In this document: positions 29,406-53,139 of the stretch, in pieces
Position numbering within the stretch: position 1 is the first letter of the stretch
Layout: every line of letters begins with the position of its first letter
Assembly (NCBI RefSeq): GCF_000321045.1
Contig: NZ_HE578947.1
Coordinates: forward strand, 3,150 to 67,149
Reading direction: 5' to 3'
Origin: Phytobacter massiliensis JC163
Lineage (GTDB): Bacteria; Pseudomonadota; Gammaproteobacteria; Enterobacterales; Enterobacteriaceae
DNA: 64,000 nucleotides
Translations under genes and position numbers: made by a program
Notes under the pieces: generated by a model
Seen by the model: the letters and a program-made list of their open reading frames with translations, nothing else
Database searches by the model: none
What the model was told of the DNA's origin: nothing

Positions 29406-30986
29406 TCATGTTGCGTCGCGCAGGCTCTCCCAGCTCAGCCCGAAGCGCGCCAGATATTTTCGCAGCCGATCGGCATCGTTGGGGTTCGCTTTTTTACGCC
29501 GGGAGACGGCGAACAGCTCGCGGCCCGCTTCGGAGAGCGACTGGCTACGCCGACAAACTTCAACTACCGTTTCCAGCTGCCGCTGGTCAAACAGATCGAT
29601 CTCTTCAACCAGCGCAGGGTGGGCGGGCGCGATGCGCCAGCTATGGCGTAAACGCGTAATCTCCTCCTCAACAAGCGCCAGCGTAATACGCCCCTGCTCG
29701 GCAAGCGTCGCCATGCGGAACACCGACGCGCTCAGCTCGCGGAAATTGCCGCGCCACAGCGCCTGCGGCGAGCAGGCAAACGCCAGATAGCGATCGCGGG
29801 CCTCTTTATCGAAACGAACCTGCGTCTGTTCGCTATCGGCGAAGCGTTGCAGCTCAAATTCAACGTTTGGCGCGATGTCTTCCCGCCGCTCGGCCAGCCC
29901 CGGCAGCGCAAAGCTCCACATATTAATGCGCGCGTAGAGATCTTCACGAAAATGCCCCTCAGCCACCCACTGGGGCATATCGCGGTGGGTTCCGGCGATG
30001 AGTTGAAAATCGCTGCGCACCTCTTTATCCGCGCCAAACGGGAAGAAGGTTTTCTCTTCTATCGCTTTTAATAGCATCGCCTGCTCATCCAGCCCCAGCT
30101 CGGCGATTTCATCCAGAAAAAGCACGCCGCCATCGGCTTCGCGCAGCAACCCGGCGCGGGGCGTTAACGCGCCGGTGAACGCGCCTTTAACGTGGCCGAA
30201 CAGCGTCGACATCGCGTTATCGCCGCGCAGCGTGGCGCAGTTCACCGCGACCAGCTTGCCTTGTACCTGGTGGCGTGACTGCTTAAGCTGAAAAATACGC
30301 CGGGCAAGGAAGGATTTCCCCGCCCCGGTCGGGCCGGTGAGCAGCATCGGCGAGCGTGAACGCAGCGCTACCCGTTCTATCTGGTCAATAAGCCGATTGA
30401 AGGTGGCGTTGCGGGTATCAATGCCCGCTTTCAGAAAAGAGACCGACTGCTGCTGTTCGCGCTGAAAACGGCTGGTAAGAGTGGCATAACGGCTTAAATC
30501 GAGATCGATAACCGAGCAGACTCCTGCGGCGACCGCCTCTTCTGGCGAGCCTTTCGGTGCCGGGCCGGTTTGCAGCAGGCTGGCGGGAAGGTAGCGGGCT
30601 TCGGTGAGCAGAAACCAGCAGATCTGCGCCACGTGGGTGCCGGTGGTGATATGCACCAGATACTCTTCATTCTCGGTATCGAAGTCGTAGCGGGTGGCGA
30701 AATCCAGAAAGGCCGCGTAGACCTCTTCGAAATCCCACGGGTCATTGATGCTGATAGCATGCGCCCGTACCTGAGTATGCGGGGAAAGCAGGGCGACATC
30801 CTCCGCCAGCTGCTGCGCCATTCCCGTATCCCGCGGCTGGTGGAGCAGTTCAAGCCGGTCGACTGGCAAATCAGGCTGCTGGCACAGCCCCACCGTTGGC
30901 CGCCATTTTCGGAACCTGTTTGCCCGCTTGCCGCGCTTATCCAGCACGGTTCCCAGTACGCCTATCACCACTCGCCGCTTTGCCAT
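29406..30986 (-). CDS. rtcR: sigma54-dependent activator RtcR (CARF sensor, AAA+ and HTH domains)
   Basis: 526-aa protein collinear with E. coli RtcR (...RLELLH..., ...NPWDFEEVYA..., ...GPTGAGKSFLARRI..., ...DADRLRKYLARFGL...). Confidence 0.9.
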   Translation of the reverse strand: MAKRRVVIGVLGTVLDKRGKRANRFRKWRPTVGLCQQPDLPVDRLELLHQPRDTGMAQQLAEDVALLSPHTQVRAHAISINDPWDFEEVYAAFLDFATRYDFDTENEEYLVHITTGTHVAQICWFLLTEARYLPASLLQTGPAPKGSPEEAVAAGVCSVIDLDLSRYATLTSRFQREQQQSVSFLKAGIDTRNATFNRLIDQIERVALRSRSPMLLTGPTGAGKSFLARRIFQLKQSRHQVQGKLVAVNCATLRGDNAMSTLFGHVKGAFTGALTPRAGLLREADGGVLFLDEIAELGLDEQAMLLKAIEEKTFFPFGADKEVRSDFQLIAGTHRDMPQWVAEGHFREDLYARINMWSFALPGLAERREDIAPNVEFELQRFADSEQTQVRFDKEARDRYLAFACSPQALWRGNFRELSASVFRMATLAEQGRITLALVEEEITRLRHSWRIAPAHPALVEEIDLFDQRQLETVVEVCRRSQSLSEAGRELFAVSRRKKANPNDADRLRKYLARFGLSWESLRDAT

Positions 30987-31120
30987 CTCTTATCCTTAAA
31001 GATAAACATTGATATGTAAGGATAAAAAAGATAGCGCGCCATAACAATTCATCGCAATGCGTTAAATTTAAAATATTTATTAATCAAGCAATTAAAAAAT
31101 AATTAGGGTGGCGCTGATTC

Positions 31121-31137
31121 TGGCACGCTTCTGGCAA
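31121..31137 (+). promoter_or_regulatory. sigma54 (-24/-12) promoter for the rtc operon
   Basis: TGGCACgcttcTGGCA fits TGGCAC-N5-TTGCA. It is divergent from rtcR, as in the E. coli rtcBA promoter. Confidence 0.7.
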
Positions 31138-31149
31138 TAGTTATCCTGC

Positions 31150-31300
31150 CATCGCACTGAGCACGCAGGGGATTGTAGCCCCGCCGGCGCATAAGGAACG
31201 GCAGACGCCGTTTTCCGCATGCGTTCCGTCAGTAAGTGGCAACCAGGGTTCGATTCCCAATTCACTCGCTAAGTGAAACTGGTTGTTAAATCTGGAAAAA
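31150..31300 (+). ncRNA. structured RNA element / tRNA-like (Y-RNA-like) candidate in the rtc operon leader
   Basis: It contains GGGTTCGATTCCC (a tRNA T-arm consensus), a perfect hairpin AACGGCagacGCCGTT nested in gcgcat...atgcg, GGGGattgtaGCCCC, and TTCACTcgctaAGTGAA. There is no ORF with an RBS. A structural alignment is needed to confirm it. Confidence 0.4.
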
Positions 31301-31442
31301 AACGGAGCGTTGAGCAGTCGGCAACCTCCAGAACAGGCTGCCGGTAACGATGCCGTGCCGCAGGCAAAAGGGAATTCCCCTGTCGCTTCGCCTCTGCGCC
31401 CGCGTCTGTCTCATCATTTAAGGAAAGAACAATGACAAAAAA

Positions 31443-32558
31443 ATGACTATCCGAAAAGGCCAACTGGGGCTGCTGGCAAAAGAGGGCGACTACTATCAGG
31501 TGCTGGAAGCGGGCGAGCACCGCCTGCCGTGGTTCAGCAAGCCGGAGGTGCTGATCGTTGAGCGCGACGGGAGCGAAGTTCCGCCTGCGCTGGCGGAATA
31601 CCTGCGTCGCTTTCAGCCTGAATGGGCCGCCCAGTACTGCCTGACGGTGGATTTAACGGAACATGAGGCGGGCGCGCTGTATATGAACGGCGTGTTGCAG
31701 GAGATTTTGCCACCGGCGACACGTCGCCTTTACTGGCTGGCCGATGAGGCGCTGAAACTGGTACGGCTGGACACGCGCCAGCGGCAGGTCCCCACGGACA
31801 TCATGAATGCGGTACTGCAACCGCGTCGCGGCGGCGCGGTAAAAGGGCGCGAAGCGATACTGACCGTGCAGGTTCCCGCCTGGCATGTAGGGGTGCTAAA
31901 AATCGACGGTGAAACCCAGGCGTTGTTGCCGCCGGGTCTTACCGCCTGGTGGAAAGTTAACCATCTGGTCGAGGCAGAAGTGGTGGATACCCGCCTGCAG
32001 GTGCTGGAGGTGAGCGGTCAGGAAATTCTCACTAAAGACAAAGTGAACCTGCGCCTGAACCTGGCGGCGAACTGGCGCTACAGCGATGTACTCCAGGCTT
32101 TTGGTCAACTGACGAAACCGCTGGATCATCTTTACCGCGAATTGCAGTTTGCCCTGCGCGAGGCGGTAGGCACACGTACGCTGGATGAGCTGCTGGAAGA
32201 TAAGCAGATCATCGATGAGGTCGTTAGCGCGCAGGTCAAAAGCCGCATGATGCCGTATGGCATTAAGGTGGCCTCGCTGGGGGTCAAAGACATTGTGCTG
32301 CCGGGCGATATGAAAACCATCCTCTCCCGGCTGGTTGAGGCGGAAAAATCGGCCCAGGCTAATGTCATCCGCCGTCGTGAAGAGACCGCCGCGACACGCT
32401 CGTTATTGAACACGGCGAAAGTCATGGAAAACAACCCGGTGGCGCTGCGCTTAAAAGAGCTGGAAACGCTCGAAAAAGTCGCGGAGCGCATCGATAAAAT
32501 TTCGGTATTCGGCGGTCTGGACCAGGTCCTGCACGGCTTAGTGAATATTAAAGGATAA
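31443..32558 (+). CDS. SPFH/band-7 (stomatin-like) domain protein with a distinct N-terminal domain and no TM segment
   Basis: The C-terminal half (...KDKVNLRLNLAANWRYSD...VKDIVLPGDMKTILSRLVEAEKSAQANV...) is an SPFH fold. It sits between the sigma54 promoter and rtcB. Confidence 0.7.
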   Translation: MTIRKGQLGLLAKEGDYYQVLEAGEHRLPWFSKPEVLIVERDGSEVPPALAEYLRRFQPEWAAQYCLTVDLTEHEAGALYMNGVLQEILPPATRRLYWLADEALKLVRLDTRQRQVPTDIMNAVLQPRRGGAVKGREAILTVQVPAWHVGVLKIDGETQALLPPGLTAWWKVNHLVEAEVVDTRLQVLEVSGQEILTKDKVNLRLNLAANWRYSDVLQAFGQLTKPLDHLYRELQFALREAVGTRTLDELLEDKQIIDEVVSAQVKSRMMPYGIKVASLGVKDIVLPGDMKTILSRLVEAEKSAQANVIRRREETAATRSLLNTAKVMENNPVALRLKELETLEKVAERIDKISVFGGLDQVLHGLVNIKG

Positions 32559-32563
32559 GAGAT

Positions 32564-33790
32564 ATGCAGCAGAATGATTTTGAACTGTTAATGGCGCAGA
32601 ACAGCGCGCCGGTGAAGATGTGGACCCACGGCGTGCCCGTGGAGCCGGAGGCGCAGGCGCAGCTGCTTAAAACCGCCAGAATGCCGTTTATTTTTAAGCA
32701 CCTGGCCGTCATGCCGGATGTGCATCTGGGTAAGGGTTCGACCATCGGCAGCGTTATCCCCACCAAAGGGGCGATCATCCCGGCCGCGGTGGGGGTGGAT
32801 ATCGGCTGCGGAATGATTGCCGTGCGCACGTCGCTGCTGGCAAGCGATCTGCCGGATAACTTAAGCGGGCTGCGCAGCGCCATTGAACGTGCCGTTCCCC
32901 ATGGGCGAAGCGTAGGGCGCGGTAAGCGTGACGTTGGCGCATGGGACACGCCGCCGGACGAAGTGAATGTTCACTGGGGGCAGTTGGCCGCGCGCTTTAA
33001 GCGGCTAACCGATAAATATCCCCGCCTGCTGAACACTAACAATCATCAGCATCTGGGAACATTGGGGACCGGTAACCACTTTATTGAAATCTGTCTGGAT
33101 GAGCAGCAGCGGGTGTGGGTGATGCTGCATAGCGGGTCGCGTGGGGTCGGTAACGCCATCGGTAATGTCTTTATCACCCTCGCGCAGCAGGATATGCAAC
33201 GGCATATCGCCAACCTGCCGGATCGTGATCTGGCCTACTTCCAGGAGGGAAGCCAGCATTATGAGGATTACATTGAGGCGGTGGAGTGGGCGCAGGATTT
33301 TGCCCGTCATAACCGGGAAGTGATGATGTCCCGCGTGCTGGCGGCGCTGTCGAAGAGCGTGACGAAGCCCTTTATGACGCAGCAGGAGGCGGTGAACTGC
33401 CACCATAACTACGTACAAAAAGAGCGTCATTTTGACGAAGAGGTGCTGGTGACGCGCAAAGGCGCGGTGTCGGCGCAGAAGGGGCAGATGGGGATCATCC
33501 CCGGCTCGATGGGGGCGAAAAGTTTTATCGTGCGCGGGCTGGGTAACGAAGAGAGCTTCTGTTCGTGCAGCCACGGCGCGGGACGCACCATGAGCCGTAC
33601 GGCGGCGAAAAAGCGCTTTACCGTTGAGGACCAGATCCGCGCCACCGCTCACGTTGAGTGCCGTAAAGACAGCGAGGTGATCGATGAGATCCCGATGGCC
33701 TACAAAGATATTGATGCCGTAATGGCGGCCCAGTCTTCGCTGGTGGAAATTGTGCATACGCTGCGTCAGGTGGTGTGCGTGAAAGGATAA
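32564..33790 (+). CDS. rtcB: RNA-splicing ligase RtcB
   Basis: 408-aa protein near-identical in conserved blocks to E. coli RtcB (...MPDVHLGKGSTIGSVIPTKGAIIPAAVGVDIGCGM..., ...CSCSHGAGR..., ...LRQVVCVKG). Confidence 0.95.
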   Translation: MQQNDFELLMAQNSAPVKMWTHGVPVEPEAQAQLLKTARMPFIFKHLAVMPDVHLGKGSTIGSVIPTKGAIIPAAVGVDIGCGMIAVRTSLLASDLPDNLSGLRSAIERAVPHGRSVGRGKRDVGAWDTPPDEVNVHWGQLAARFKRLTDKYPRLLNTNNHQHLGTLGTGNHFIEICLDEQQRVWVMLHSGSRGVGNAIGNVFITLAQQDMQRHIANLPDRDLAYFQEGSQHYEDYIEAVEWAQDFARHNREVMMSRVLAALSKSVTKPFMTQQEAVNCHHNYVQKERHFDEEVLVTRKGAVSAQKGQMGIIPGSMGAKSFIVRGLGNEESFCSCSHGAGRTMSRTAAKKRFTVEDQIRATAHVECRKDSEVIDEIPMAYKDIDAVMAAQSSLVEIVHTLRQVVCVKG

Positions 33791-33794
33791 AAAG

Positions 33795-34598
33795 ATGATG
33801 AACACGGTGGATGCCGCGATGCGCGAGCGTGTGATGCGGCAGTTAAAAGAGGTGGAGCAGCGTTTTGGCGTGCGGGTACTGTACGCCTGCGAGTCCGGCA
33901 GCCGGGGGTGGGGTTTTGCCTCGCCGGACAGCGATTACGACGTGCGCTTTTTGTATGTTCACCCGCCCGAGTGGTATCTGCGGGTGGAGGCGGCGCGGGA
34001 CGTTATCGAACTGCCAATAGATGATGAGCTGGACGTCTGCGGCTGGGAGTGGCGCAAGGCGCTCGGCCTGTTGAAAGGGGCCAACCCGACGCTTATCGAG
34101 TGGCTGGACTCGCCGGTGGTTTATCAGCAGGACGGCGCCACCGTGGCGGCGCTAAAAGCGCAGGTGCCTCGCTGGTTCTCCCCCGTGCGCGCCCGCTGGC
34201 ACTACTATTCGATGGCGCGCAAAAACTTTCGTAGCTATCTGCAGGGTGACGAGGTGCGGCTGAAAAAGTACTTTTATGTGCTGCGCCCTCTGCTGGCGGT
34301 GCGTTGGGTAGAGGCGGGTAAAGGCGTCCCGCCGATGCGTTTTGCCGAACTGCTGGCAGGTAGTGAACTGGACGCGCCGTTGCGCCGGGAAATCGACGAT
34401 CTGCTTGCTCGCAAACAGCGCGCCGGAGAGGCGGAGTATGGCCCGCGCCGCCCGCTGCTGCATGCTTTCCTGAATGCCGAACTGGCCAGGGGTGAGATCC
34501 CGCCCGTATTGCCGGACAGCAGGGAGGGAAATAGCAGCGAACTGGATAGTTTGCTGTATCAGACCGTTATGGCCCCGCAGTCCCCGGATGCGGCATAG
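33795..34598 (+). CDS. Pol-beta-superfamily nucleotidyltransferase, in the position normally held by rtcA
   Basis: It has the motif GSRGWGFASPDSDYDVRFLY (GS...D.D). It is 4 nt downstream of rtcB, and there is no RtcA-like ORF. Confidence 0.65.
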   Translation: MMNTVDAAMRERVMRQLKEVEQRFGVRVLYACESGSRGWGFASPDSDYDVRFLYVHPPEWYLRVEAARDVIELPIDDELDVCGWEWRKALGLLKGANPTLIEWLDSPVVYQQDGATVAALKAQVPRWFSPVRARWHYYSMARKNFRSYLQGDEVRLKKYFYVLRPLLAVRWVEAGKGVPPMRFAELLAGSELDAPLRREIDDLLARKQRAGEAEYGPRRPLLHAFLNAELARGEIPPVLPDSREGNSSELDSLLYQTVMAPQSPDAA

Positions 34599-34640
34599 CC
34601 TTATCCGGGCTACTCTTTGTAGCCCGGCTCGGTTTTAAGG
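34598..34640. repeat. REP-type extragenic palindrome
   Basis: gccttatccgggctac...gtagcccggctc. The reverse complement (gtagcccggataaggc) recurs near 57745. Confidence 0.5.
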
Positions 34641-35090
34641 GTGGTATTGCCCACTGCTGACCAGCGCGTAGAGGTGGTTCGGTGAGTAGCGCCAGCTCTC
34701 ATTAAGCCCCAGAAACGCCGCGCAAAACTCGCTGCAAAACAGCCTGTTGCGATGCTCTTTGTTGCCCAATACAATCCCCAGCGCTCCCTGCCAGTCGTAG
34801 CGTTTGCCGTCATGCTGGCGGAAAAACGCCTCCACTTCCGGCAGACTTGTCTGCAATGGCAGCTTATCCCACTTATCATCCGGCAACGGCATCAGCTTGC
34901 CGCGTACGCCGCGATCGCGAAACGAAGCCGAGTAACAGAGGTACTCATTTCCGCCGCGCGCCACGGCCAGTTCACAGTGGGAGTAGATCCCACGCGTGAT
35001 TTTGCGGGTCAGCCAGTCGGCAACCCTGGCAATGCCCCGGTGCTCCGCCCGCCCTTTATAGCAGGCGAGCCAGACGGTGGCGTTACTCAT
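34635..35090 (-). CDS. YiiX/YaeF-like permuted papain-fold (C92) hydrolase
   Basis: It has ...RLFCSEFCAAFL (like the YiiX LYCSELV catalytic-Cys block) and an upstream ...GIYSHCELAV (His block). It is 72 nt downstream of the tail-fibre gene on the same strand. Confidence 0.5.
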   Translation of the reverse strand: MSNATVWLACYKGRAEHRGIARVADWLTRKITRGIYSHCELAVARGGNEYLCYSASFRDRGVRGKLMPLPDDKWDKLPLQTSLPEVEAFFRQHDGKRYDWQGALGIVLGNKEHRNRLFCSEFCAAFLGLNESWRYSPNHLYALVSSGQYHP

Positions 35091-35161
35091 GGCTGCCAGC
35101 CTGGGGTGTAGTCGTAAAATGATTTTTGATTAAATATGATTCCATTTTATTTATCCTGTTA

Positions 35162-36835
35162 TTATACAGTAATGGCTTGTGGGCGAATTTCTCCATACAT
35201 ACCAGTGACTGCATTAGTGAAAAGCTGCCTTCCATATTCTTCAGGATCATCTTTTGACGCGGTAAATAAAATCTCTGTACCTATTCCTTCGATATCACAG
35301 GTGAAATTGATAGAGTTATATGTTCCCTCATTTAAATCTTTATAATTAGCGTAAGGATTTCGTATATTCTTTACTCTAGAGGTATTACCTATAGGGACTC
35401 GTTGGATTAACATGTTTGTAGTCAAATATTGATGGAGCACATCCGTTTTATCATGCTGTGCAGCATTGCATGTCCACCAAATTCCTGGTAAATAGGCAGT
35501 TGCATTCATGTTTTTACCCATGGAAAAGCCTGGCCCCGATAAAAAGCAGCAAGAGGATAAAGTACTGCCAGCTCTAATTTCGCCTTGCTTTATATCATCT
35601 ATTTGATTAAGACTTGATTGGGTATTCTTTATAAATGGAACAGTAGCTAAACAATACGCGCCATCCCCATTTACCTTAGGGTAAAGCCCCTTAATTTGAT
35701 CGGCAGTATGAGTATGATTCGCCGGTGCCGCCGCATTCGCCTTGTCCATCGCCGCTTTCACCGCGCTCGGCGTCGCCGCTTCGGTGGTGCTGGTGCTGTT
35801 AGTGGCATTATTCAGCTTCACCACCCCTTTCTGGGTCAGGGTGCCATCCGGTACGCCGGTGACCTGATTCCAGGGGTGGGTGTGGCTGGCCGGTGCGGCC
35901 GCATTCGCCTTATCCATTGCCGCTTTCACCGCGCTCGGCGTCGCCGCTTCGGTGGTGCTGGTGCTGTTAGTGGCGCTGTTCAGCTTCACCACCCCTTTCT
36001 GGGTCAGGGTGCCGTCCGGTACGCCGGTGACCTGATTCCAGGGGTGAGTGTGGCTGGCCGGTGCGGCGGCATTCGCTTTATCCATCGCTGCTTTCACCGC
36101 GCTCGGCGTTGCTGCTTCGGTGGTGCTGGTGCTGTTGGTGGCGTTGTTCAGCTTCACGATCCCTTTCTGGGTCAGGGTGCCGTCCGGCACGCCGCTTATC
36201 TGGCTCCAGGTATGGGTGTGATTACGCGCTTCGGCCAGCGCTGCTTTCACCGCTTTCGGCGTGGCGGCTTTGGTTTCGTCATCGCTGTTGGTGGCGTTGC
36301 TGAGCTGCGTAAAGCCTTTTTGCGTGAGCGTGGCGTCCGGGTGTCTGGTGGAGTGCTCGTGCTCATCCAGCAGCGAATCCACATAGTCGCGGGTTGCCAG
36401 CACCACGCTGGGGTCAACGGTCAGGGTGACCGCCGTGGTGTTGGACACTTCCATAATCAGACGAATGCAGACCTGCTTGCCGCTGCCGCCGGGCAACAGC
36501 GGCTTGTAGGACTCCGGGAACTTGCCGATGGCGATCAGATCGCCGTCGGTGTCGAATACCCCCACCTCGCGCACGTACCAGCCGCCGATGTTTTCCGGCA
36601 GTACTACTTCGGCAATCAGCCAATTGGGGTTATTGGGCGCGACCGTCAGGGTATTCATCTCACCGCGCCAGACTTCGCGACGTAATTTCGTCTGGTTAAC
36701 GGCAGGCTCATAATATTGCCCGCCGCCGTCGCCAACCGCCATCTTTTGCAGATGCAGCTGTTTTTTCTCCGCCAGCGCGGCGGCGATTTTCGCCATCCCC
36801 TTATTGGTCAGGAGAGTATAAAATTCATTATCCAT
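35162..36835 (-). CDS. phage tail fibre protein (P2 gpH-like N-terminus, repeat region, low-GC C-terminal receptor-binding domain)
   Basis: The N-terminus (...MAVGDGGG...WRGEMN...IAEVVLPENIGGWYVREVGVFD...ESYKP...HPDATLTQKGFTQLSNATNS) resembles P2 gpH. It has P2 fibre-repeat units TLTQKG.VKLN.ATNSTS..EAATPSAVKAA. Confidence 0.85.
   Translation of the reverse strand: MDNEFYTLLTNKGMAKIAAALAEKKQLHLQKMAVGDGGGQYYEPAVNQTKLRREVWRGEMNTLTVAPNNPNWLIAEVVLPENIGGWYVREVGVFDTDGDLIAIGKFPESYKPLLPGGSGKQVCIRLIMEVSNTTAVTLTVDPSVVLATRDYVDSLLDEHEHSTRHPDATLTQKGFTQLSNATNSDDETKAATPKAVKAALAEARNHTHTWSQISGVPDGTLTQKGIVKLNNATNSTSTTEAATPSAVKAAMDKANAAAPASHTHPWNQVTGVPDGTLTQKGVVKLNSATNSTSTTEAATPSAVKAAMDKANAAAPASHTHPWNQVTGVPDGTLTQKGVVKLNNATNSTSTTEAATPSAVKAAMDKANAAAPANHTHTADQIKGLYPKVNGDGAYCLATVPFIKNTQSSLNQIDDIKQGEIRAGSTLSSCCFLSGPGFSMGKNMNATAYLPGIWWTCNAAQHDKTDVLHQYLTTNMLIQRVPIGNTSRVKNIRNPYANYKDLNEGTYNSINFTCDIEGIGTEILFTASKDDPEEYGRQLFTNAVTGMYGEIRPQAITV
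35717..36220 (-). repeat. three tandem 168-bp (56-aa) repeats inside the tail-fibre gene, plus a degenerate fourth unit upstream
   Basis: The units HTHPWNQVTGVPDGTLTQKGVVKLN.ATNSTSTTEAATPSAVKAAMDKANAAAPAS are near-identical at the DNA level. The same relationship appears on the opposite strand as the RRRFGGAGAV runs in ORF 35696..36685. Confidence 0.85.
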
Positions 36836-36837
36836 AA

Positions 36838-37470
36838 TTACTCCGGGTAAATAGACGTAATTTCAAGGCTCCATTGCCCTGTGCCAAAATAAACTGGCTT
36901 AGTTTGTTGAACTTCCAGTACCTGGAAGGGTGAAATAGTGGTAATTTCGCCGCCAAAAAGGGCGCAGCCCAGTACCGGTATTGCGCTCTGGTTAATAATC
37001 CAGATAATCAGTGCTTCCAGCTTTGAACGCACATTTTTATATTCATGAATCAGCTCTACCAGATGATTAAAAAGCGGTTCATCGATGCCATTGTTAATAA
37101 GCTCAATTTCAATTTTGAAAAAATACGCTTTGCCACCGTATTCAAACCATTCGGCAATAGTGCCAGGTAACGATAATATCTCCAGCACGCGACGAACGGC
37201 CCAGGGCGTCCCTTTATATTTGTGCAGCTCAATGGCCTGCTTGATTAATTCCCGCTTCTCCTTTTCATTGCGGGCGAATAACCAGCCCTCCAGTCCCTGC
37301 ACATGAAACTGTTCGGCCAGCGAAGGCAGCGCAGAGGCGTCAACCAGATCCACCAGGTAAATAAGCAGCGCCGTCAGATCCATTTGTGCGAAGCGTTCGG
37401 CGGCGATGTTCGCCAGAAGCGAAAAGCGCTCATCGCGGGCAAGCGGCGGCGGCAGATGCAATTTATCCAT
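36838..37470 (-). CDS. phage baseplate/tail protein gpI-like
   Basis: It sits between gpJ and the fibre as in P2 (J-I-H). It is 210 aa, and its start overlaps the gpJ stop. Confidence 0.7.
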   Translation of the reverse strand: MDKLHLPPPLARDERFSLLANIAAERFAQMDLTALLIYLVDLVDASALPSLAEQFHVQGLEGWLFARNEKEKRELIKQAIELHKYKGTPWAVRRVLEILSLPGTIAEWFEYGGKAYFFKIEIELINNGIDEPLFNHLVELIHEYKNVRSKLEALIIWIINQSAIPVLGCALFGGEITTISPFQVLEVQQTKPVYFGTGQWSLEITSIYPE

Positions 37471-38475
37471 CGCTCACTCCGGCAATCGTCACGTCAATAA
37501 TGATGCATTCCGCCCATACATGCGCCAGCAGTTCACGTTTGGCAGGCTGTTCCAGCGCCACGTCGTAAACGCCATCCACCTGCAGCACTTTGATTATCTG
37601 ATTCGGCACAATATCCTGGCCGAGCCGCGTCTGGCGCTGCTGGGTCCATGCTTCAATTGCCGCGCGGGCGGCGGCAAGGGTGGCCGCCTGATCGGCATGG
37701 GTAAAGAGCGTCAGCCGGGCGCGAATCTGATAAGGCACCCGCGGCGGCAATTTGACGCTGACCTTATCGGTCAGCGGGCGCTTTTTGTCCTTGCCCACTT
37801 CCTGCTGAATTTGGGCAAGCAGTTCCGTCCCCGGCATGCCGTTCAGCGTCAGTGGATAGATCTCCACGCAGCCTTCCGGCAACCCTTCATCCGGCCCCAG
37901 TATCGCCACGTCGATAATTGACTGGCTGACGGAAAGCGTATGAAAACGGTATGCCCCGTAGCTGCCTGCGTTACTGAAACTTTCTGGTGCCAGCCTGATA
38001 CGCTCCCGCAGCGCGTCGTCGCTCTCTTCATCGCAACCGCCAGCCGAGGTCGTCAGGTTGGTTACCTTCACCGGATAGCTGCTGATCCTGTCCATCAGGG
38101 CGCTGATTTGCGCAGGTTCCCAGCCGTTGCCCGCTTCACCGGTTACAAGACAGGTGGCGGTGACAGCCGCCTCTGGCTTGTTGGGCAGAACCCTGACATC
38201 CTCTTCGCTGGCTGAGCGGGCAGGCGGTGAACGCCAACCAGTTCGCCTAAATAATCCAGCATGGGGGCGCGGGAATAGGCCACCAGGTTTTGCTTCGCCG
38301 CCTCCTGAATGGCGATGCGGACAAGGTTTTCACGATAGGCAATCAGGTCGATAAGCAGCCGCTCCGCCTGTGCCGGATAGAGTTTTTTACCGCTGGCCTT
38401 TTCATATTGCGCGATTATCTCGCTGGTAATTTGCGCGGGGTCGCGGTCGATAAAATCGGGTTCGGCTATCGCCAT
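37463..38475 (-). pseudogene. phage baseplate assembly protein gpJ-like; frame interrupted (ORFs 38143..38475 and 37463..38095, with a third frame carrying sense between them)
   Basis: The N-terminal ORF (MAIAEPDFIDRDPAQITSEIIAQYEK...LVGVHRLPAQPA) becomes nonsense after about residue 94. The C-terminal ORF (...ESFSNAGSYGAYRFH...) resembles P2 gpJ. Between them the frame ...VLPNKPEAAVTATCLVTGEAGNGWEPAQIS reads sensibly, which implies two single-nt gaps near G/C runs (about 38200 and about 38098). Confidence 0.7.
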
Positions 38476-38825
38476 AACACCTCCGTAGAGTTAATAACGC
38501 CGTCTGCGGCGCGCCATTGCACATGAAGCGTCAGGTGTTCGCCGTCAATCGTCGGCGTCACCTTGAGCAGGCGGCAACGTGGCTCCCACATGCGGATCGC
38601 CTCCACCGACTCCCGTACCACGTGCGGAATAGCTCGCTCGACGGGATAGTCGATATAGCGCCACAGGTTGCTGCCAAACAGCGGTCTGTGAGGATCGCTG
38701 CCGCGCGGCGTGCGCAGGATGATGTGTATTGCCTGATGAATATCGTCCAGCCCGCAGACATATTCTTCAGGGCGCTGCAGGGCAGGTTGCCAGTGCAGGG
38801 TTGAGGGTCGTGTTTTCGTGTTCAT
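38466..38825 (-). CDS. phage baseplate protein gpW/gp25-like
   Basis: 119-aa protein of GPW/gp25-family size. It is in the V-W-J order of a P2 baseplate module. Confidence 0.75.
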   Translation of the reverse strand: MNTKTRPSTLHWQPALQRPEEYVCGLDDIHQAIHIILRTPRGSDPHRPLFGSNLWRYIDYPVERAIPHVVRESVEAIRMWEPRCRLLKVTPTIDGEHLTLHVQWRAADGVINSTEVLWR

Positions 38826-39001
38826 GCGGCTATTTTCACCTCAACGGAGGCGGCGCGATATTAAAGCGCTTTAGGAAAGGAGTTGATTAAAGAGAGAAAA
38901 ATCGCCGCATCGGGCGTCCCGGATGCGCTTCGCTTATCCAGGCTACAGTTAGCGGCAGGAGGCGCACCCGGGAACCCCGGATACGCCGTGCGGCGGGTGG
39001 G

Positions 39002-39745
39002 TTAGTGAGAGTGGTGGTTTGAGTTGCCGCCGCTGTCCATAACTGAACCGCTGGCTTTTAGGTTGCCCTGAATATTAACGTTGCCGGTGATCACCGCACT
39101 GCTGCCAGCGCCGCTGCTGCCTGCCATGCCGCCAAGCCAGGTCAGTTTTTTCATCACCGTAACATTGCCGGTAAAGGTGCTAATCGGCGCATCCACCGTT
39201 ACATCCAGCGCTTTAATGCCGGTACGGGCAGCCTCCACGCTGACATCAACGGCCTGTACCGCCACCTGGCTTGCCTCCACGCTCACGTCAGTGGCCTTCA
39301 CGCTGACCGTCTCCGAGGTCACATTTACCTGTTGCGCTTTTACCTCCACCAGCGGCGAGGTGAGGCGGGTACTCTCTTTCACCTCAATCACTATCTTTTC
39401 GATACCGCCGTTGATGGTGAGCTGGTGCGATTGACGATCGTATTCAAAAGCCGCGCCGTCGGAAAAATGCACGTAGCGTTTGTCGCGCGAGGCCAGCGGC
39501 GCGGTGTCAACCGTGGAGTAAACCGCCCCCAGCACCACGCCGTCTTCACCGTTGTCATCAAGCAGAACCTCGACCTGTTCGCCCATATCCGGCAGCCAGT
39601 AGTCTTTGTTGTCCTGCGTATTGCGCTGCAGAACCGGCAGCCAGTTGCTTTGCAGATTATCGCACTCCGGCAGAGTAACCCTGACGAGAACCGTGGTCTC
39701 GTCGATGTCGCTGATAATTCCCGTCTGGCGGGTAACGCCTTTCAT
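39002..39745 (-). CDS. phage baseplate spike gpV-like
   Basis: It has an N-terminal OB-like domain followed by short V/S/T-rich beta-helix repeats (VNVTSETVSVKATDVSVEASQVAVQAVDVSVEA...) and a Gly-rich C-terminus with HHSH. Confidence 0.75.
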   Translation of the reverse strand: MKGVTRQTGIISDIDETTVLVRVTLPECDNLQSNWLPVLQRNTQDNKDYWLPDMGEQVEVLLDDNGEDGVVLGAVYSTVDTAPLASRDKRYVHFSDGAAFEYDRQSHQLTINGGIEKIVIEVKESTRLTSPLVEVKAQQVNVTSETVSVKATDVSVEASQVAVQAVDVSVEAARTGIKALDVTVDAPISTFTGNVTVMKKLTWLGGMAGSSGAGSSAVITGNVNIQGNLKASGSVMDSGGNSNHHSH

Positions 39746-39754
39746 GTCGTCTCC

Positions 39755-40795
39755 TTACTGGCTGGTCGCCGGTCCGCGTGAAATGTCGATTTCGGTGGTA
39801 TAGCCGCTGCGGGTAAATCGATGCATTGATTTATCAATCAGCCACTGGCCGGACAGAACGCCGAAGCCGGTCAGTTCGATTTTGTTCCCCGCGGTCAGCT
39901 GCGGGCAGCCCATCAGGCTCAGCGTGCCGGTCTGCTGATACTCGTTATGGCTGTCCAGCGCGGCGTTGGCTTTCGCCTGCGCCGCGCCGGTATCGGGCGC
40001 GCGGCTGTTGAGCTTGAGAGTATCGGCGCTGGTTGCCGCCCCCCTGGCCGACGGTTTTTGCTGGCTATCGTGGGTATAAATAACCAGCTCCTTTTTCTTG
40101 CCGTTTTGATGTTGTACGGTGGCGTTCTTATAGATCCGGTTGATGGTATCGTTAAAGGTGTAATGGCCGATATCCGTCCGATCGAGGGTTTTCACCGGCG
40201 CAAGGCAGCGCAGCGAAGGCAGATGTGAAAAGACAAGCTCCGCCGCCGTCACCTTGACGGTGTAGCCGTACTCACTGGCCAGACGCTTGAGAAACGCAAT
40301 ATCGGTTTCCGCGTACTGCGTTACCCGGTCAATGTTCAGGGTAGCGATGTGCCCCACCAGCTTTAAGCCGTGCTTTTGCGCAATACGGCTGGCGATGGCG
40401 GCAAGGGTGGTCTCTTCAAACCCCTCGCTGTTTCTGGTGCGCAGCGCTTTGCTGACCGAGGTGGCGATGCCGTCAATATTCACCGTGGACGGCGGCGCGC
40501 TGATATCAATTTTATCAATGATATAGACGCCGCAATCCAGCAGTTCCTCCCCCTGGTAGCCCAGATGCAGGGCAAGGGTATCGCCTTTGCCGGGATACCA
40601 TTCGTTCACCCAGCGGCCTTCGCTGTCTTCCAGCGTAATGGCGATAACATCCGACTCGTTCTTGATGCTGTCGCTGTAGCTGATGCTAGTGACATAAGGG
40701 GCGATATCGTAAGTAATATCCTTATGCCCGTACCAGAGCGTAAAAATGGGCGTTAGCGTGGCACAGACGCCGCCGGACAGGGTTATCTCAGCCAT
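39755..40795 (-). CDS. phage late-control gene D (gpD)-like tail protein
   Basis: 346-aa protein. It is in the tape measure (gpT)-U-X-D order. Confidence 0.7.
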   Translation of the reverse strand: MAEITLSGGVCATLTPIFTLWYGHKDITYDIAPYVTSISYSDSIKNESDVIAITLEDSEGRWVNEWYPGKGDTLALHLGYQGEELLDCGVYIIDKIDISAPPSTVNIDGIATSVSKALRTRNSEGFEETTLAAIASRIAQKHGLKLVGHIATLNIDRVTQYAETDIAFLKRLASEYGYTVKVTAAELVFSHLPSLRCLAPVKTLDRTDIGHYTFNDTINRIYKNATVQHQNGKKKELVIYTHDSQQKPSARGAATSADTLKLNSRAPDTGAAQAKANAALDSHNEYQQTGTLSLMGCPQLTAGNKIELTGFGVLSGQWLIDKSMHRFTRSGYTTEIDISRGPATSQ

Positions 40796-40992
40796 GGCGC
40801 CAGCTCCGTTGTGGTCTGCGTGGCGCGCACGACAGGGATGATTAACCGTACGCCGGACGGCAGCACCGCCGTGATGGCAACATGAGGATTCGCGGCGATA
40901 AGCCGCTCATAGGCGAGGGCGTCGCCATAGTAGCGCCAGGCGAGGTTGTCCCAGCGCTCCCCCTCTGTGGTGATGTGTTCAAGGTAGCGCAT
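40783..40992 (-). CDS. phage tail protein gpX-like (LysM-like)
   Basis: 69-aa protein with ...WDNLAWRYYGDALAYERLIAANPHVAITAVLPSGVRLIIP, which fits the P2 gpX pattern (...ICVRYYG...LAANPGL...LP.G..). Confidence 0.75.
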   Translation of the reverse strand: MRYLEHITTEGERWDNLAWRYYGDALAYERLIAANPHVAITAVLPSGVRLIIPVVRATQTTTELAPWLR

Positions 40993-41945
40993 TACACCCT
41001 CCTCGTGACGATCGCGGCGGCGATAAGGCTGGTCGCCGTGGTGGTTTTTTGCACGCTGTTACGCGCCTCGTTGACCTGCGAAGCGGCGTCGTTGAAGAGG
41101 GCTTCCGCCGCGCTTTGCTTGAAGGTGTCAAACAGCGATTTGGCATGTTCAAGCAGCGTGGTCGCGTCGTGGGCGCAGTCACGGATGCCCGGCAGGCTGT
41201 CGATCAGCGCCTGGATTTGCGCGGAGAGCGCGGCAGGCATTGCCGCCAGCGTTTGTAAATCCAGCGGCTGGCGCAAAAGCGCCTCCGTTGCGTCGATGAT
41301 TTTTTTCAGCGTATTGATGGTGTTGATGCACTTCTCTTTCAGCGCCTTCGCCTCCTTTATCAAATCTTTTGCCTGCGCGACCATTTTTTTGGCCTCCTCA
41401 ATGGCGTCGGCTATATCGTCCATCATCGCTCTGGCGTCGCGCATTCCGTCTTCGATGGTCTTCATCAGGTCATCGAACCAGCTGTCGCCAAGCCGCGGGA
41501 AATCCTGCCACTGCTCATCAATATTTGGGTCCTGCGTTGAGACTGCGGGCGGCAACAGCGGGCTCTTCGGGTTACCGGTGTACTCCTGCAGCGACAGGCT
41601 ACCGCTCTGGGCAATCACGTTGCCGTAAGGATCGGTGTGCTGGTGGGTAGCCGTCAGGTCGGTTATCACGAACCAGCCGCGGTAATCGCCGTTGCCAAAC
41701 ACCAGCGCCATCGCCTGATGCGCGGTCATGGCTTGCCGCAGGCGGTTCAGCTCCGCTGTCGGCTGACAGTACTGGCTGTGGAAACTGAACTGCAGCGTAA
41801 TTTTGTCCAGCTTGTCGCCGATAAACTGCACCCCTGGTTTACCTTCGATACGGGCATGAGAGGCGTAATCCACGCCCATTGTGTTTTCGAAGCCGTCCCA
41901 GTAAGCAACGACCTCAAACTCTATTTCTCCTAATACGGCATACAT
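40992..41945 (-). CDS. phage tail protein gpU-like with a C-terminal coiled-coil extension of about 160 aa
   Basis: The N-terminal roughly 150 aa are gpU-like (...GKPGVQFIGDKLDKITLQFSFH..., ...GWFVITDL...). The C-terminus is rich in A/E/K/L heptads. Confidence 0.6.
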   Translation of the reverse strand: MYAVLGEIEFEVVAYWDGFENTMGVDYASHARIEGKPGVQFIGDKLDKITLQFSFHSQYCQPTAELNRLRQAMTAHQAMALVFGNGDYRGWFVITDLTATHQHTDPYGNVIAQSGSLSLQEYTGNPKSPLLPPAVSTQDPNIDEQWQDFPRLGDSWFDDLMKTIEDGMRDARAMMDDIADAIEEAKKMVAQAKDLIKEAKALKEKCINTINTLKKIIDATEALLRQPLDLQTLAAMPAALSAQIQALIDSLPGIRDCAHDATTLLEHAKSLFDTFKQSAAEALFNDAASQVNEARNSVQKTTTATSLIAAAIVTRRV

Positions 41946-44272: not shown

Positions 44273-44368
44273 AGTAAATTCTTCCGTTTGATGGCCCGGC
44301 GGCAGGCTTTCTTGAAATGGCAGAGAAGGGGCAGGAAACCGGGCGTAAGGTTGGGAGACCCGCAGGCG

Positions 44369-44575
44369 TTACGCCTGCGAATCGTATTCGTGTTTTATCT
44401 GGGTGTTCGCTTCGTCCAGCCAGCGGGTGAAATCCTCAACCGCCAGGGCATCGATCTCACTGGGCGGAAAGCGAAACCATCTCGCCAGCAGCGCCATTGC
44501 CTGCCATAGCTGCGGCGGATTCTGTAGCCATACCGAGCATGGCCTGAAATCGCTTTTGCAGCGCCTGATAATCAA
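44369..44575 (-). CDS. gpE' -1-frame extension region (probable programmed frameshift product E+E')
   Basis: The -1 frame continues past the gpE stop and reads ...WFRFPPSEIDALAVEDFTRWLDEANTQIKHEYDSQA. Tail-chaperone frameshifting is conserved in this gene arrangement. Confidence 0.5.
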   Translation of the reverse strand: MIIRRCKSDFRPCSVWLQNPPQLWQAMALLARWFRFPPSEIDALAVEDFTRWLDEANTQIKHEYDSQA

Positions 44576-44774: not shown

Positions 44775-44815
44775 TTTATTATCCTTTTAATTTCGGGGCC
44801 GCAGCCCCGAATAAA

Positions 44816-47953: not shown

Positions 47954-47966
47954 TGGCCTCCTCTGA

Positions 47967-53119: not shown

Positions 53120-53139
53120 TGCGTTAATAGCCACAGATA

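What the first reader, a model, noticed from the sequence alone, without database searches (positions are those of the whole stretch)
31138..31442. Roughly 300-nt structured non-coding leader with a tRNA T-arm-like GGGTTCGATTCCC element between the sigma54 promoter and the first rtc-operon gene
E. coli rtcB starts shortly after its promoter. Here a long leader contains several perfect hairpins (GGGGattgtaGCCCC; gcgcat-aagg-AACGGCagacGCCGTT-ttcc-gcatgcg; TTCACTcgctaAGTGAA) and an exact match to the tRNA T-stem/loop consensus (AGGGTTCGATTCCC; the identical 13-mer occurs in tRNA-Gly). In Salmonella, rtc operons encode Y RNAs (YrlA/YrlB) that mimic tRNA next to the Ro60 ortholog Rsr. No Rsr is present here. 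This could be a Y-RNA-like or tRNA-mimic ncRNA, a regulatory leader sensed by the RNA-repair machinery, or a degenerate tRNA fragment left by an old integration event.
Basis: seen in the sequence. Interest (0 to 1): 0.7.

Follow-up and report, generated by a model that had tools for sequence, protein, structure and literature searches.

The report
tRNA-derived RNA leading slipin–RtcB operon
The roughly 300 bases between the RtcR-controlled promoter and the first gene of this RNA-repair operon encode a conserved, tightly folded RNA that keeps a tRNA 'elbow' hairpin; it is an enterobacterial, non-cloverleaf relative of a tRNA-like partner RNA of Band-7/slipin proteins that was predicted in 2016 and, as of a 2018 preprint, had not been tested.

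Summary
A sigma54 promoter (31121-31136) is followed by a ~296-nt leader (about 31147-31442) before a soluble slipin/Band-7 gene, RtcB and the RlaP nucleotidyltransferase. The leader is a multi-domain RNA. Domain 1 is a three-way junction. It is followed by the invariant T-loop hairpin GGGUUCGAUUCCC, a short hairpin and an invariant ACUGGUUGU. Domain 3 is a long bulged hairpin. Domains 1 and 3 have strong covariation across Enterobacterales: 92% of cells paired against 38-50% in slid controls, and 25/30 and 19/22 pairs with compensatory changes. Covariance models built without the window hit it at 90 and 60 bits. The T-loop motif lies upstream of slipin in 76 of 80 species. Distant relatives carry cloverleaf tRNA-like genes there, some with arrays of 8-28 tRNAs. 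This matches the 'Band-7-associated tRNA' system predicted by Burroughs and Aravind (2016). The window, however, has no cloverleaf. Its T-arm belongs to an upstream companion element, which in Undibacterium sits directly before the cloverleaf. No Rfam family matches and RefSeq does not annotate it; about 29% of complete E. coli genomes carry a copy. The most likely role is a tRNA-mimicking RNA partner of slipin in RNA repair, which is inferred, not shown. I class it as a new variant of a known, predicted kind.

The parts
30987..31120 (+). Divergent rtcR-operon control region with TTATC/GATAA repeats (putative RtcR upstream activating sites)
   Evidence: Sequence. The GATAA-type repeats and the promoter are kept in the E. 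coli copy, which has no adjacent rtcR (alignment A1). Assigning them as RtcR sites is inference.
31121..31136 (+). Sigma54 promoter TGGCACGCTTCTGGCA (-24 GG 31122-23, -12 GC 31134-35); predicted start near 31147
   Evidence: Unique match in the window. Conserved in most Enterobacterales loci at the same distance and in E. coli. RtcR with a Sigma54_activat domain is encoded divergently. The start site is inferred from the usual spacing.
31156..31233 (+). Domain 1: a three-way junction. P1 is ACUGA 31156-60 paired with UCAGU 31229-33. It encloses hairpin hp1 (31165-31184, a degenerate T-arm-like 7-nt loop) and the long bulged hairpin (31185-31228).
   Evidence: RNAalifold on 35 Enterobacterales. 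Pair counts: 92.5% paired against 38-49% when slid, 25/30 pairs with compensatory changes, 0/500 shuffles reach the observed values (the counted structure also includes the T-arm). P1 position 40/117 switches A-U to G-C in 13 sequences. The hp1 loop reads UUCGAAG or UUCAAAA in Xenorhabdus.
31246..31258 (+). T-arm: GGG-UUCGAUU-CCC, an exact tRNA T-loop consensus
   Evidence: GGTTCGAnTCC is invariant in all 35 aligned Enterobacterales and present upstream of slipin in 76/80 species. The stem covaries as 5 bp in relatives. It is the only part of the window that matches the tRNA-like model R1 (11.8 bits) and Rfam's tmRNA T-arm (9 bits).
31261..31277 (+). Hairpin UUCACU-cgcua-AGUGAA directly 3' of the T-arm (a closed 'acceptor-stem-like' helix)
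   Evidence: In the 13-sequence subgroup alignment A5, the counted structure (this hairpin plus the T-stem) scores 87.5% paired (this helix alone 88%), covariation 0.21 against at most 0.086 slid, and two pairs change on both sides: UCACU/AGUGA, UCAUU/AAUGA, UCACC/GGUGA.
31278..31286 (+). ACUGGUUGU, almost invariant in the window's subgroup; a possible D-loop (GG) mimic
   Evidence: All positions but one are invariant in A5; one Klebsiella sequence has A for the C. The other subgroup has a GGUU(A) tract 5' of the T-arm instead, and L012 has both. The D-loop reading is inference.
31304..31329 (+). Middle hairpin GGAG-...-CUCC
   Evidence: Seen in the MFE and centroid folds and in the tail alignment. 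Not tested formally.
31336..31407 (+). Domain 3: a long bulged hairpin. The outer helix pairs 31336-45 with 31398-31407. The inner helix pairs 31352-68 with 31375-91. It carries conserved GGCAAAA, UUCCCCUG and GCUUCGCC tracts.
   Evidence: RNAalifold on 24 sequences. Pair counts: 92.3% paired against 40-50% slid, 19/22 pairs compensatory, 0/500 shuffles on all five measures. Model R3, built without the window, hits 31334-31409 at 59.7 bits, E 8e-14.
31420..31446 (+). Shine-Dalgarno AAGGAA (31420-25), a 4-codon upstream ORF ATG ACA AAA AAA TGA (31432-46), and the slipin ATG at 31443
   Evidence: Sequence. Close relatives read ATGACAAAAAAAATTACC in one frame, giving 375 aa.
31443..34598 (+). Operon genes: slipin/Band_7 (31443-32558), RtcB (32564-33790), RlaP (33795-34598)
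   Evidence: Pfam. Stomatin-like SPFH by PDB sequence search. Synteny across Enterobacterales.
29406..30986 (-). rtcR (CARF-type RtcR domain plus sigma54 AAA+ activator)
   Evidence: Pfam RtcR and Sigma54_activat. PADLOC RtcR model, 873 bits.

Best explanation
The leader is a tRNA-derived, multi-domain structured RNA. It is transcribed from the RtcR/sigma54 promoter together with slipin, RtcB and RlaP.

What it is (shown):
- It is a conserved ~290-nt RNA whose two large domains covary.
- Its centre keeps an intact tRNA T-loop, followed by a closed helix and a GG-containing tract.
- It is homologous to an element that, in Undibacterium, lies directly upstream of a cloverleaf 'Band-7-associated' tRNA-like gene.
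- In Enterobacterales that cloverleaf has been lost or reduced.

How it works (inferred):
- The RNA, or a piece processed out of the 5' UTR, is the RNA partner of the soluble SPFH/slipin protein. Such proteins form rings or cages. The relationship would be analogous to Y RNA with Ro60 in the Salmonella rsr-yrlBA-rtcBA operon.
- The T-loop 'elbow' mimic presents a tRNA-like surface. It could recruit or position tRNA-handling enzymes (RtcB, RlaP, and perhaps TruB or RNase P), or compete with tRNA for a nuclease, while tRNAs are damaged.
- Induction follows RtcR sensing of tRNA fragments with 2',3'-cyclic phosphate ends. This step is taken from work on Salmonella.
For: Structure and conservation:
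- Covariation of Domain 1 plus the T-arm, of the post-T hairpin and of Domain 3.
- G-U pairs and hits on the + strand only fix the strand.
- Models built without the window or E. coli find the window once in 64 kb: R2 at 90.1 bits, R3 at 59.7 bits.
- The leader is 97.9% identical to the nearest relative, against 75.6% for the neighbouring intergenic DNA.

tRNA descent:
- The T-loop motif lies upstream of slipin in 76/80 species.
- Cloverleaf tRNA-like genes with non-conserved or malformed anticodon loops occupy that position in Orbales, Neisseriaceae and Burkholderiales.
- R2 hits Undibacterium L055 3121-3255 (46 bits) directly before a cloverleaf at 3259-3337 (R1 74 bits).

Partnership with slipin rather than with RtcR or RtcB:
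- The RNA always accompanies slipin, whereas RtcB is missing in many loci and RtcR is missing next to the E. coli copy.
- Some tRNA-array loci have slipin with no RtcR or RtcB nearby.

Literature:
- b7a-tRNA was predicted next to Band-7 and RtcB, and proposed to be redundant with YrlA (10.1101/312249).
- The YrlA domain order is T, acceptor-like stem, D (PMC4201824).
- RtcR is activated by damaged tRNAs (PMC7790460).
- RlaP repairs RNA 3' ends (PMC12776372).
- A slipin, rtcB and a tRNA array are co-induced in Anabaena (PMC10272220).
- The slipin is stomatin-like; solved stomatin, QmcA and HflK/C entries hold 12-64 chains each.
Against: - There are no expression, processing or binding data of any kind.
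- No terminator or second promoter separates the RNA from slipin, so it may act only as a 5' UTR.
- The window lacks the cloverleaf that defines b7a-tRNA.
- Its T-stem has only 3 pairs.
- The acceptor-like stem seen in other genera is not supported in the window's subgroup.
- The slipin N-terminal ~145 residues have no recognised RNA-binding family.
- No Ro-type binding motif is present.
- The structures were derived from and counted on the same alignments, and the sequences are phylogenetically related, so the shuffle statistics overstate significance. The slid controls and the held-out model hits mitigate this.
Confidence: 0.5

Rival explanations
1. The RNA is a purely cis-acting regulatory leader. 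It controls translation, stability or elongation of the slipin-RtcB-RlaP mRNA. It might do so by binding slipin or RtcB for feedback. Alternatively, the nucleases that damage tRNA, or tRNA-processing enzymes, might cleave or remodel it.
For: - No terminator or sigma70 promoter lies between the RNA and slipin.
- Conservation runs up to about 35 nt before the start codon.
- Mutually exclusive pairings exist around the T-arm: the strand after the T-arm can pair upstream or downstream, and L012 has both partners.
- In some Burkholderiales the structured spacer ends in a U-run before slipin, which looks like an attenuator.
Against: - The Shine-Dalgarno sequence and start codon lie outside the covarying helices.
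- Relatives carry complete tRNA-like genes with encoded CCA at this position, which suggests a released stable RNA.
- The element stays with slipin under different promoters and gene sets.
Confidence: 0.25
2. The tRNA-like hairpin is an RNA-processing or stability signal. It would attract RNase P, RNase E or 3' exonuclease-blocking factors, as tRNA punctuation does. This would define the 5' end of the operon mRNA and protect it. It would have no partner-RNA role.
For: - In other genera an acceptor/T minihelix with a (C)ACC tail flanks the T-arm. Such minihelices are known RNase P and CCA-enzyme substrates (established knowledge).
- M. smegmatis YrlA is cut by RNase P (PMC4201824).
Against: - This does not explain about 170 nt of additional covarying structure in Domains 1 and 3.
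- The window's subgroup lacks a supported acceptor stem and a CCA-like tail.
Confidence: 0.12
3. It is a neutral relic: decaying remains of tRNA genes or of a phage attachment site, without present function.
For: - Descent from tRNA genes is likely.
- A contractile-tail gene cluster lies 3.4 kb downstream.
- The window's T-stem is eroded to 3 bp.
Against: - The 11-nt T-loop motif is invariant across 35 Enterobacterales.
- Compensatory changes occur in 25/30 and 19/22 pairs.
- The leader is 97.9% identical to the nearest relative, against 75.6% for the flank.
- The element is present in loci with no phage genes.
- Only one viral contig carries the slipin.
Confidence: 0.03

Closest known systems
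[quoted passage not shown]
   Same: - It is encoded next to a Band-7/slipin gene in an RtcB operon.
- It carries a tRNA T-loop.
- It was unvalidated experimentally as of the citing 2018 preprint.
- Orthologous loci in Orbales, Neisseriaceae and Burkholderiales have cloverleaf versions at the same position.
   Different: - The window has no cloverleaf: ARAGORN, the Rfam tRNA model and my model R1 all fail apart from the 13-nt T-arm.
- By homology (R2 hit in Undibacterium) the window's T-arm belongs to a companion element upstream of the cloverleaf.
- The RNA also includes a three-way junction and a long 3' hairpin. Whether the 2016 paper describes these I could not check.
YrlA-type bacterial Y RNAs with Ro60/Rsr (Chen et al. 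2014, PMC4201824; Wang et al. 2018)
   Same: - It is a non-coding RNA inside an RtcR-regulated RtcB operon.
- It contains a tRNA-mimicking module.
- The order in the window, T-arm then closed helix then GG-containing tract, resembles YrlA's T, acceptor-like stem, D order.
- Chen et al. note that a tRNA dimer can mimic that arrangement, and here a tandem of tRNA-like genes is the likely ancestor.
   Different: - No Rsr/TROVE gene is in the operon.
- No GNCGAAN0-1G Ro-binding motif is present.
- There is no D stem-loop with support.
- No Rfam hit.
- The protein partner would be an SPFH protein, not Ro60.
tRNA-like domain of tmRNA and tRNA acceptor/T minihelices
   Same: In several genera the element reduces to an acceptor-like stem, a D-loop-like GGUUA linker, a T-arm and a (C)ACC tail. 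That is a tRNA 'top half' without an anticodon arm, as in tmRNA.
   Different: - There are no mRNA-like or pseudoknot domains.
- The window's subgroup lacks a supported acceptor stem.
- Only the generic T-arm matches tmRNA models (9 bits).
Stress-induced tRNA gene arrays co-regulated with rtcB (Anabaena trn operon; PMC8421152, PMC10272220)
   Same: - Distant slipin loci carry same-strand arrays of 8-28 tRNA genes next to the tRNA-like elements.
- In Anabaena the array, rtcB and a slipin gene are derepressed together.
   Different: - The window has no tRNA gene.
- Regulation here is by RtcR/sigma54, not TrcR.
- The Anabaena genes are not in one operon.

Membership tests
b7a-tRNA (Band-7-associated tRNA-like RNA) | Encoded adjacent to a Band-7/SPFH gene linked to RtcB | tested here: met
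   The leader lies immediately 5' of slipin, followed by RtcB. The same arrangement is seen in 80 species.
b7a-tRNA (Band-7-associated tRNA-like RNA) | [quoted passage not shown] | tested here: not met
   - ARAGORN finds nothing at default or relaxed thresholds.
- The Rfam tRNA model gives no hit at E<=10.
- Model R1, built from 27 cloverleaf elements, matches only 31246-31258 (11.8 bits).
- Other Enterobacterales reach 21 bits at most.
b7a-tRNA (Band-7-associated tRNA-like RNA) | tRNA T-arm with the GGUUCGAnUCC consensus | tested here: met
   Exact match at 31247-31257, invariant in 35 Enterobacterales.
b7a-tRNA (Band-7-associated tRNA-like RNA) | Orthology of the window element to the cloverleaf gene itself | tested here: not met
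   In Undibacterium the R2 homolog (L055 3121-3255; L050 3494-3649) lies upstream of, and separate from, the cloverleaf (L055 3259-3337; L050 3656-3734). The window element therefore corresponds to the companion element.
YrlA / bacterial Y RNA | Encoded next to, and bound by, Ro60/Rsr (TROVE domain) | tested here: not met
   The operon proteins are Band_7, RtcB and RlaP, with no TROVE domain. Binding is not testable here.
YrlA / bacterial Y RNA | Ro-binding helix with the GNCGAAN0-1G motif | tested here: not met
   There is no match to G.CGAA.?G, and not even CGAA, in 31147-31442.
YrlA / bacterial Y RNA | tRNA-like module in the order T-arm, closed acceptor-like stem, D-arm | tested here: inconclusive
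   The T-arm and a covarying closed hairpin are present. The near-invariant ACUGGUUGU could be a D-loop mimic, but no D stem is supported.
Canonical tRNA gene | Cloverleaf with anticodon arm, detectable by tRNA finders | tested here: not met
RtcR/sigma54-dependent rtc operon | Divergent rtcR, a -24/-12 promoter, and RtcB downstream | tested here: met
   RtcA is absent from this operon. Activation by RtcR is inferred.
Any Rfam 15 family | Match at the gathering score, or even at E<=10 with a sensible alignment | tested here: not met
   In the leader at E<=10 there are only chance-level hits, plus the 13-nt T-arm against tmRNA. Related leaders give nothing.

The most novel reading that the evidence does not exclude
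The whole ~290-nt leader is one previously undescribed class of large structured RNA. It would have been built by remodelling a tandem pair of tRNA genes into a Y-RNA-like T / closed-stem / D-loop arrangement, flanked by two extra domains. It would assemble with a soluble SPFH cage protein into a bacterial RNP dedicated to tRNA repair or protection. This would be a functional analogue of Ro60-Y RNA, and possibly of vault particles, that arose independently. It would be present in many Enterobacterales, including more than a quarter of E. coli strains.
Probability: 0.2. Interest if true: 0.8.

Novelty: new variant of a known kind. Interest (0 to 1): 0.6.

Why it matters
- RtcB/RtcR operons are widespread, but what they repair and which cofactors they use remain largely open questions.
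- A tRNA-like RNA partner of Band-7 proteins was predicted in 2016; a 2018 preprint described it as not validated, and my literature searches found no later test.
- This window shows that genetically tractable enterobacteria, including about 29% of complete E. coli genomes, carry a divergent version that tRNA finders and Rfam miss.
- That version has a well-defined covarying structure, a single sigma54 promoter and a simple operon.
- This makes three questions directly testable: whether SPFH/slipin proteins form RNPs, what a minimal tRNA 'elbow' mimic does during tRNA damage, and how tRNA genes are remodelled into new non-coding RNAs.
- It also supplies three covariance models' worth of alignment for a new RNA family.

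Tried and rejected
Pairings considered and dropped:
- A D-arm reading of GUC-AGC...-GAC after the long hairpin. The U/C at that position covaries with the 5' strand of P1, not with GAC, and five genera would have C·A mismatches.
- CAACCAG (31240-46) pairing with CUGGUUG (31279-85), which the MFE fold uses. The 5' strand is not conserved in any relative, while the 3' strand is almost invariant.
- The acceptor-like stem AGUGG/UCACU in the window. It is not above controls in the window's subgroup, though a comparable stem is seen in other genera.

Searches that led nowhere:
- Cloverleaf search by ARAGORN at 85% thresholds: nothing in the window.
- Rfam at E<=10: only chance hits.
- Phage origin: only one viral contig carries the slipin. 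PADLOC has no model for slipin, RtcB or RlaP.
- Domain 3 model in Burkholderiales: no hit at E<0.1, although those loci have a long structured spacer.

Things I could not or did not do:
- Burroughs and Aravind 2016 could not be read: it is not held by DOI or PMC id. What that paper shows for Enterobacterales is therefore unknown to me.
- I did not predict the slipin structure. The homologs returned were all 87-90% identical, too shallow for a useful alignment.
- Single-sequence thermodynamics gave no signal (z -1.32).
Full report
**Locus**

The finding lies in the 456-nt gap between two divergent genes.
- rtcR (29406-30986, minus strand) has the Pfam domains RtcR and Sigma54_activat, and matches the PADLOC RtcR model at 873 bits.
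- A plus-strand operon encodes a Band_7/SPFH 'slipin' protein (31443-32558), RtcB (32564-33790) and the RlaP nucleotidyltransferase (33795-34598).

There is no RtcA and no TROVE/Rsr protein in the operon. A sigma54-type promoter, TGGCACGCTTCTGGCA, sits at 31121-31136 and is the only such match in the window. With the usual spacing, transcription should start near 31147, which gives a leader of about 296 nt. No sigma70-like promoter and no plus-strand terminator were found between 30900 and 31600. By inference, the leader is therefore co-transcribed with slipin.

**Checking the observation**

- GGTTCGANTCC occurs once in 64 kb, with 0.11 expected by chance.
- The window contains no tRNA gene, even at relaxed ARAGORN thresholds in this region.
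- At gathering thresholds Rfam 15 finds only STnc430, elsewhere in the window.
- At E<=10 in the leader, Rfam reports chance-level hits plus the bare T-arm against a tmRNA model at 9 bits.
- The folding energy of the leader alone is not unusual (z = -1.32).

The case for a real structure therefore has to be comparative.

**Relatives**

The slipin protein retrieved 80 loci from 80 species: Enterobacterales, Orbales, Neisseriaceae, Burkholderiales, Thiotrichaceae and others, at 45-88% identity. The T-loop motif GGTTC[GA]AnTCC lies within 700 nt upstream of slipin in 76 of them. Of the four exceptions:
- L076 ends at a contig edge, 51 nt upstream of the slipin match.
- L055 has the motif slightly further away.
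- L032 has a variant that the later model still finds.
- L062, a 2-kb contig with about 540 nt of upstream sequence, has no match and was not examined further.

Across Enterobacteriaceae the gene order is conserved: bile-acid symporter, rtcR, leader, slipin, then RtcB in some loci, then RlaP. RtcB is absent in many species.

In E. coli, 1547 of 5426 complete genomes carry a ~75% identical copy of leader positions 31167-31404. In the genome I inspected, and in an Escherichia species representative (L010), it lies upstream of slipin plus RlaP, with no adjacent rtcR or rtcB. In the inspected genome RefSeq annotates nothing in that intergenic region. The E. coli copy keeps the sigma54 promoter and the upstream GATAA repeats. 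This suggests control in trans by the resident RtcR, which is inference.

**Structure of the 5' half**

A MAFFT alignment of 35 Enterobacterales leaders (A2) and RNAalifold give a three-way junction.
- P1 pairs window 31156-60 with 31229-33 and closes the junction.
- hp1 spans 31165-31184.
- The long bulged hairpin spans 31185-31228.
- The T-arm follows at 31246-58.

Counting these 30 pairs gives 92.5% standard pairs, against 38-49% when the 3' partners are slid by 1-3 columns. Compensatory changes occur in 25 of 30 pairs, and no shuffle out of 500 reaches the observed covariation. P1 is especially clear: A-U in 17 sequences, G-C in 13. Many G-U pairs, and model hits on the plus strand only, fix the strand.

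The 7-nt loop of hp1 is not T-loop-like in the window (AUUGUAG). It reads UUCGAAG or UUCAAAA in Xenorhabdus. It lies 76 nt before the main T-arm, the same spacing as the two tandem tRNA-like genes of distant relatives. I read hp1 as a degenerate second T-arm, which is inference.

**Around the T-arm**

The 11-nt T-loop motif is invariant in all 35 sequences. The stem is 5 bp and covaries in most genera, but is only 3-4 bp in the window's subgroup.

Two arrangements exist.
- In Erwinia, Brenneria, Lonsdalea, Mangrovibacter, Proteus, Xenorhabdus and others, a 5' strand and a GGUU(A)-containing linker precede the T-arm. The complementary 3' strand follows it, often ending in (C)ACC. This is an acceptor/T 'minihelix' with a D-loop-like linker.
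- In the window's subgroup (Citrobacter, Klebsiella, Enterobacter, Escherichia, Phytobacter, Yokenella) the strand after the T-arm instead forms a local hairpin (31261-77). Together with the T-stem it scores 87.5% paired (88% for the hairpin alone), and two of its pairs change on both sides.

In that subgroup the upstream acceptor-like pairing is not above controls. The hairpin is followed by ACUGGUUGU, which is invariant apart from one base in one Klebsiella sequence. Superficieibacter (L012) has both sets of partners.

The window's order, T-arm then closed helix then GG tract, is the order of the tRNA-like module of YrlA Y RNAs (PMC4201824). Reading ACUGGUUGU as a D-loop mimic is my inference.

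**Structure of the 3' half**

The rest of the leader is also conserved. An alignment of 24 Enterobacterales and Orbales sequences (A3) folds into a long bulged hairpin, window 31336-31407. It scores 92.3% pairs against 40-50% slid, has 19 of 22 pairs with compensatory changes, and no shuffle out of 500 reaches the observed value on any of the five measures. The Shine-Dalgarno sequence and start codon lie outside it.

**Held-out tests**

Two models were built without the window and without Escherichia.
- R2 covers Domain 1 plus the T-arm. It finds the window once, at 31154-31263 on the plus strand, with 90.1 bits (E about 1e-20), and the Escherichia copies at 82-85 bits.
- R3 covers Domain 3. 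It finds 31334-31409 at 59.7 bits, every other Enterobacterales and Orbales locus searched (some were in its training set), and Neisseriaceae at about 25 bits. It finds no Burkholderiales locus.

Against the nearest relative (metagenome contigs whose slipin is 99% identical), the leader is 97.9% identical while the promoter-distal intergenic DNA is 75.6% identical. This indicates purifying selection on the transcribed part.

**Relation to known RNAs**

The literature search led to Wang, Chen, Wolin and Xiong (bioRxiv 10.1101/312249), who summarise Burroughs and Aravind (NAR 2016). According to that summary:
- b7a-tRNA and YrlA occasionally swap protein partners.
- The RNA had not been validated.

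I could not read the 2016 paper itself.

The distant loci fit that description. Next to slipin they carry cloverleaf tRNA-like genes whose anticodon loops are unconserved, malformed, or replaced by a tetraloop. The Rfam tRNA model hits two of the three cloverleaf elements tested and misses the Gilliamella one.

A model of 27 such cloverleaves (R1) matches the window only over the 13-nt T-arm (11.8 bits), and other Enterobacterales at no more than 21 bits. The defining cloverleaf is therefore absent here.

R2 also hits two Undibacterium (Betaproteobacteria) loci, L055 3121-3255 at 46 bits and L050 3494-3649 at 31 bits. In both, the hit lies immediately upstream of a separate cloverleaf (L055 3259-3337, R1 74 bits; L050 3656-3734). 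The window's T-arm therefore belongs to a companion, tRNA-derived element that precedes the cloverleaf. In Enterobacterales the cloverleaf itself has been lost, or reduced to the post-T hairpin and ACUGGUUGU. The second alternative is inference.

[quoted passage not shown] That fits an origin of this arrangement from a tandem pair.

**Mechanism**

What is shown:
- A conserved, covarying, strand-specific RNA with a tRNA T-loop at its centre.
- It is always linked to slipin, is variably linked to RtcB, RlaP and RtcR, and lies behind a sigma54 promoter here.

What is inferred:
- RtcR, activated by tRNA fragments with cyclic phosphate ends (PMC7790460), drives transcription.
- The RNA, possibly after processing, binds the soluble stomatin-like slipin. 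The closest solved relatives are stomatin, QmcA and HflK/C, whose entries hold 12-64 chains each.
- It offers a tRNA-elbow mimic that recruits or regulates RtcB and RlaP, or competes with tRNAs for a nuclease. RlaP adds one or two nucleotides to damaged RNA 3' ends (PMC12776372).

Independent support for a functional link between slipin, RtcB and tRNA comes from Anabaena. There, a tRNA array, rtcB and a slipin gene are all derepressed in a trcR mutant (PMC10272220; PMC8421152).

The main rival is a purely cis-acting leader. The lack of a terminator and the alternative pairings around the T-arm keep it alive. A neutral-relic reading is contradicted by the conservation pattern.

**Verdict**

The tRNA-mimic reading is right in kind, and it connects to a published prediction. 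However, the window element fails the cloverleaf test for b7a-tRNA and the Ro-related tests for Y RNA.

It is best described as a new, non-cloverleaf variant of the Band-7-associated tRNA-like RNA system. It is embedded in a ~290-nt multi-domain leader that Rfam does not cover and that the one RefSeq record I inspected does not annotate. The function remains inferred.

Noticed in passing
L054, L059, L061, L064, L067, L069, L071, L078-L081 (e.g. L081 668-3454 and 5172-5982; L064 1992-3715): In Burkholderiales and uncultured Gammaproteobacteria the slipin gene is flanked by same-strand arrays of 8-28 apparently canonical tRNA genes, mostly without RtcR or RtcB within 4 kb. The last one or two elements before slipin are the odd tRNA-like ones. 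This recalls the stress-induced tRNA arrays of cyanobacteria.
   Followed up: partly
window 31432-31446: Close relatives start slipin at ATGACAAAAAAAATTACC (MTKKITIR, 375 aa). The window has one A fewer and a T-to-G change, which gives a 4-codon upstream ORF (MTKK stop) whose TGA overlaps a new ATG at 31443 (371 aa). Either this is a compensated frameshift with translational coupling, or it is a sequencing error in the A-run.
   Followed up: partly
window 34635-48668, minus strand: A contractile-tail gene cluster begins directly after RlaP: tail fibre, baseplate, tape measure, sheath and endolysin. No head genes were seen among the 10 ORFs scanned in this stretch, so it may be a tailocin or a defective prophage. 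The same small gene (151 aa) and tail fibre follow RlaP in E. coli L001 and Superficieibacter L012. The E. coli copy of leader-slipin-RlaP may therefore have travelled with this element.
   Followed up: partly
L001 (E. coli NZ_CP033850.1 1816282-1816524) and 1546 other E. coli genomes: About 29% of complete E. coli genomes have the leader. In the one genome inspected it precedes slipin and RlaP next to yjbD, without rtcR or rtcB alongside but with the sigma54 promoter and upstream repeats intact. The region is unannotated in RefSeq there.
   Followed up: partly
L035-L046 (e.g. L040 3989-5554); protein P0002 (522 aa): In Orbales, Neisseriaceae, Xenorhabdus and some Providencia the slipin carries an insertion of about 140-190 residues after its first ~40 residues. 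As a result the tblastn match is split.
   Followed up: no
L064 3716-3935, L059, L060: In tRNA-array-type Burkholderiales the long GC-rich structured spacer between the tRNA-like genes and slipin ends in a run of 5-7 U. It may be a terminator or attenuator, so the RNA could be a separate transcription unit there.
   Followed up: no
window 30987-31060 and L001 5830-5880: TTATC / GATAA repeats (e.g. TTATCCTTAAAGATAA ... GGATAAAAAAGATAG) lie next to the rtcR start and are conserved in the E. coli copy. They are candidate RtcR binding sites.
   Followed up: no
window 53132-53293, minus strand: The enterobacterial sRNA STnc430 (Rfam RF02053, 74.8 bits) is the only Rfam match in the window at gathering threshold.
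   Followed up: no
window 32564-34598 and related loci: This rtc-type operon has RlaP but no RtcA. RtcB is missing from the operon in about a third of the enterobacterial species, so slipin plus RlaP plus the RNA looks like the stable core.
   Followed up: partly
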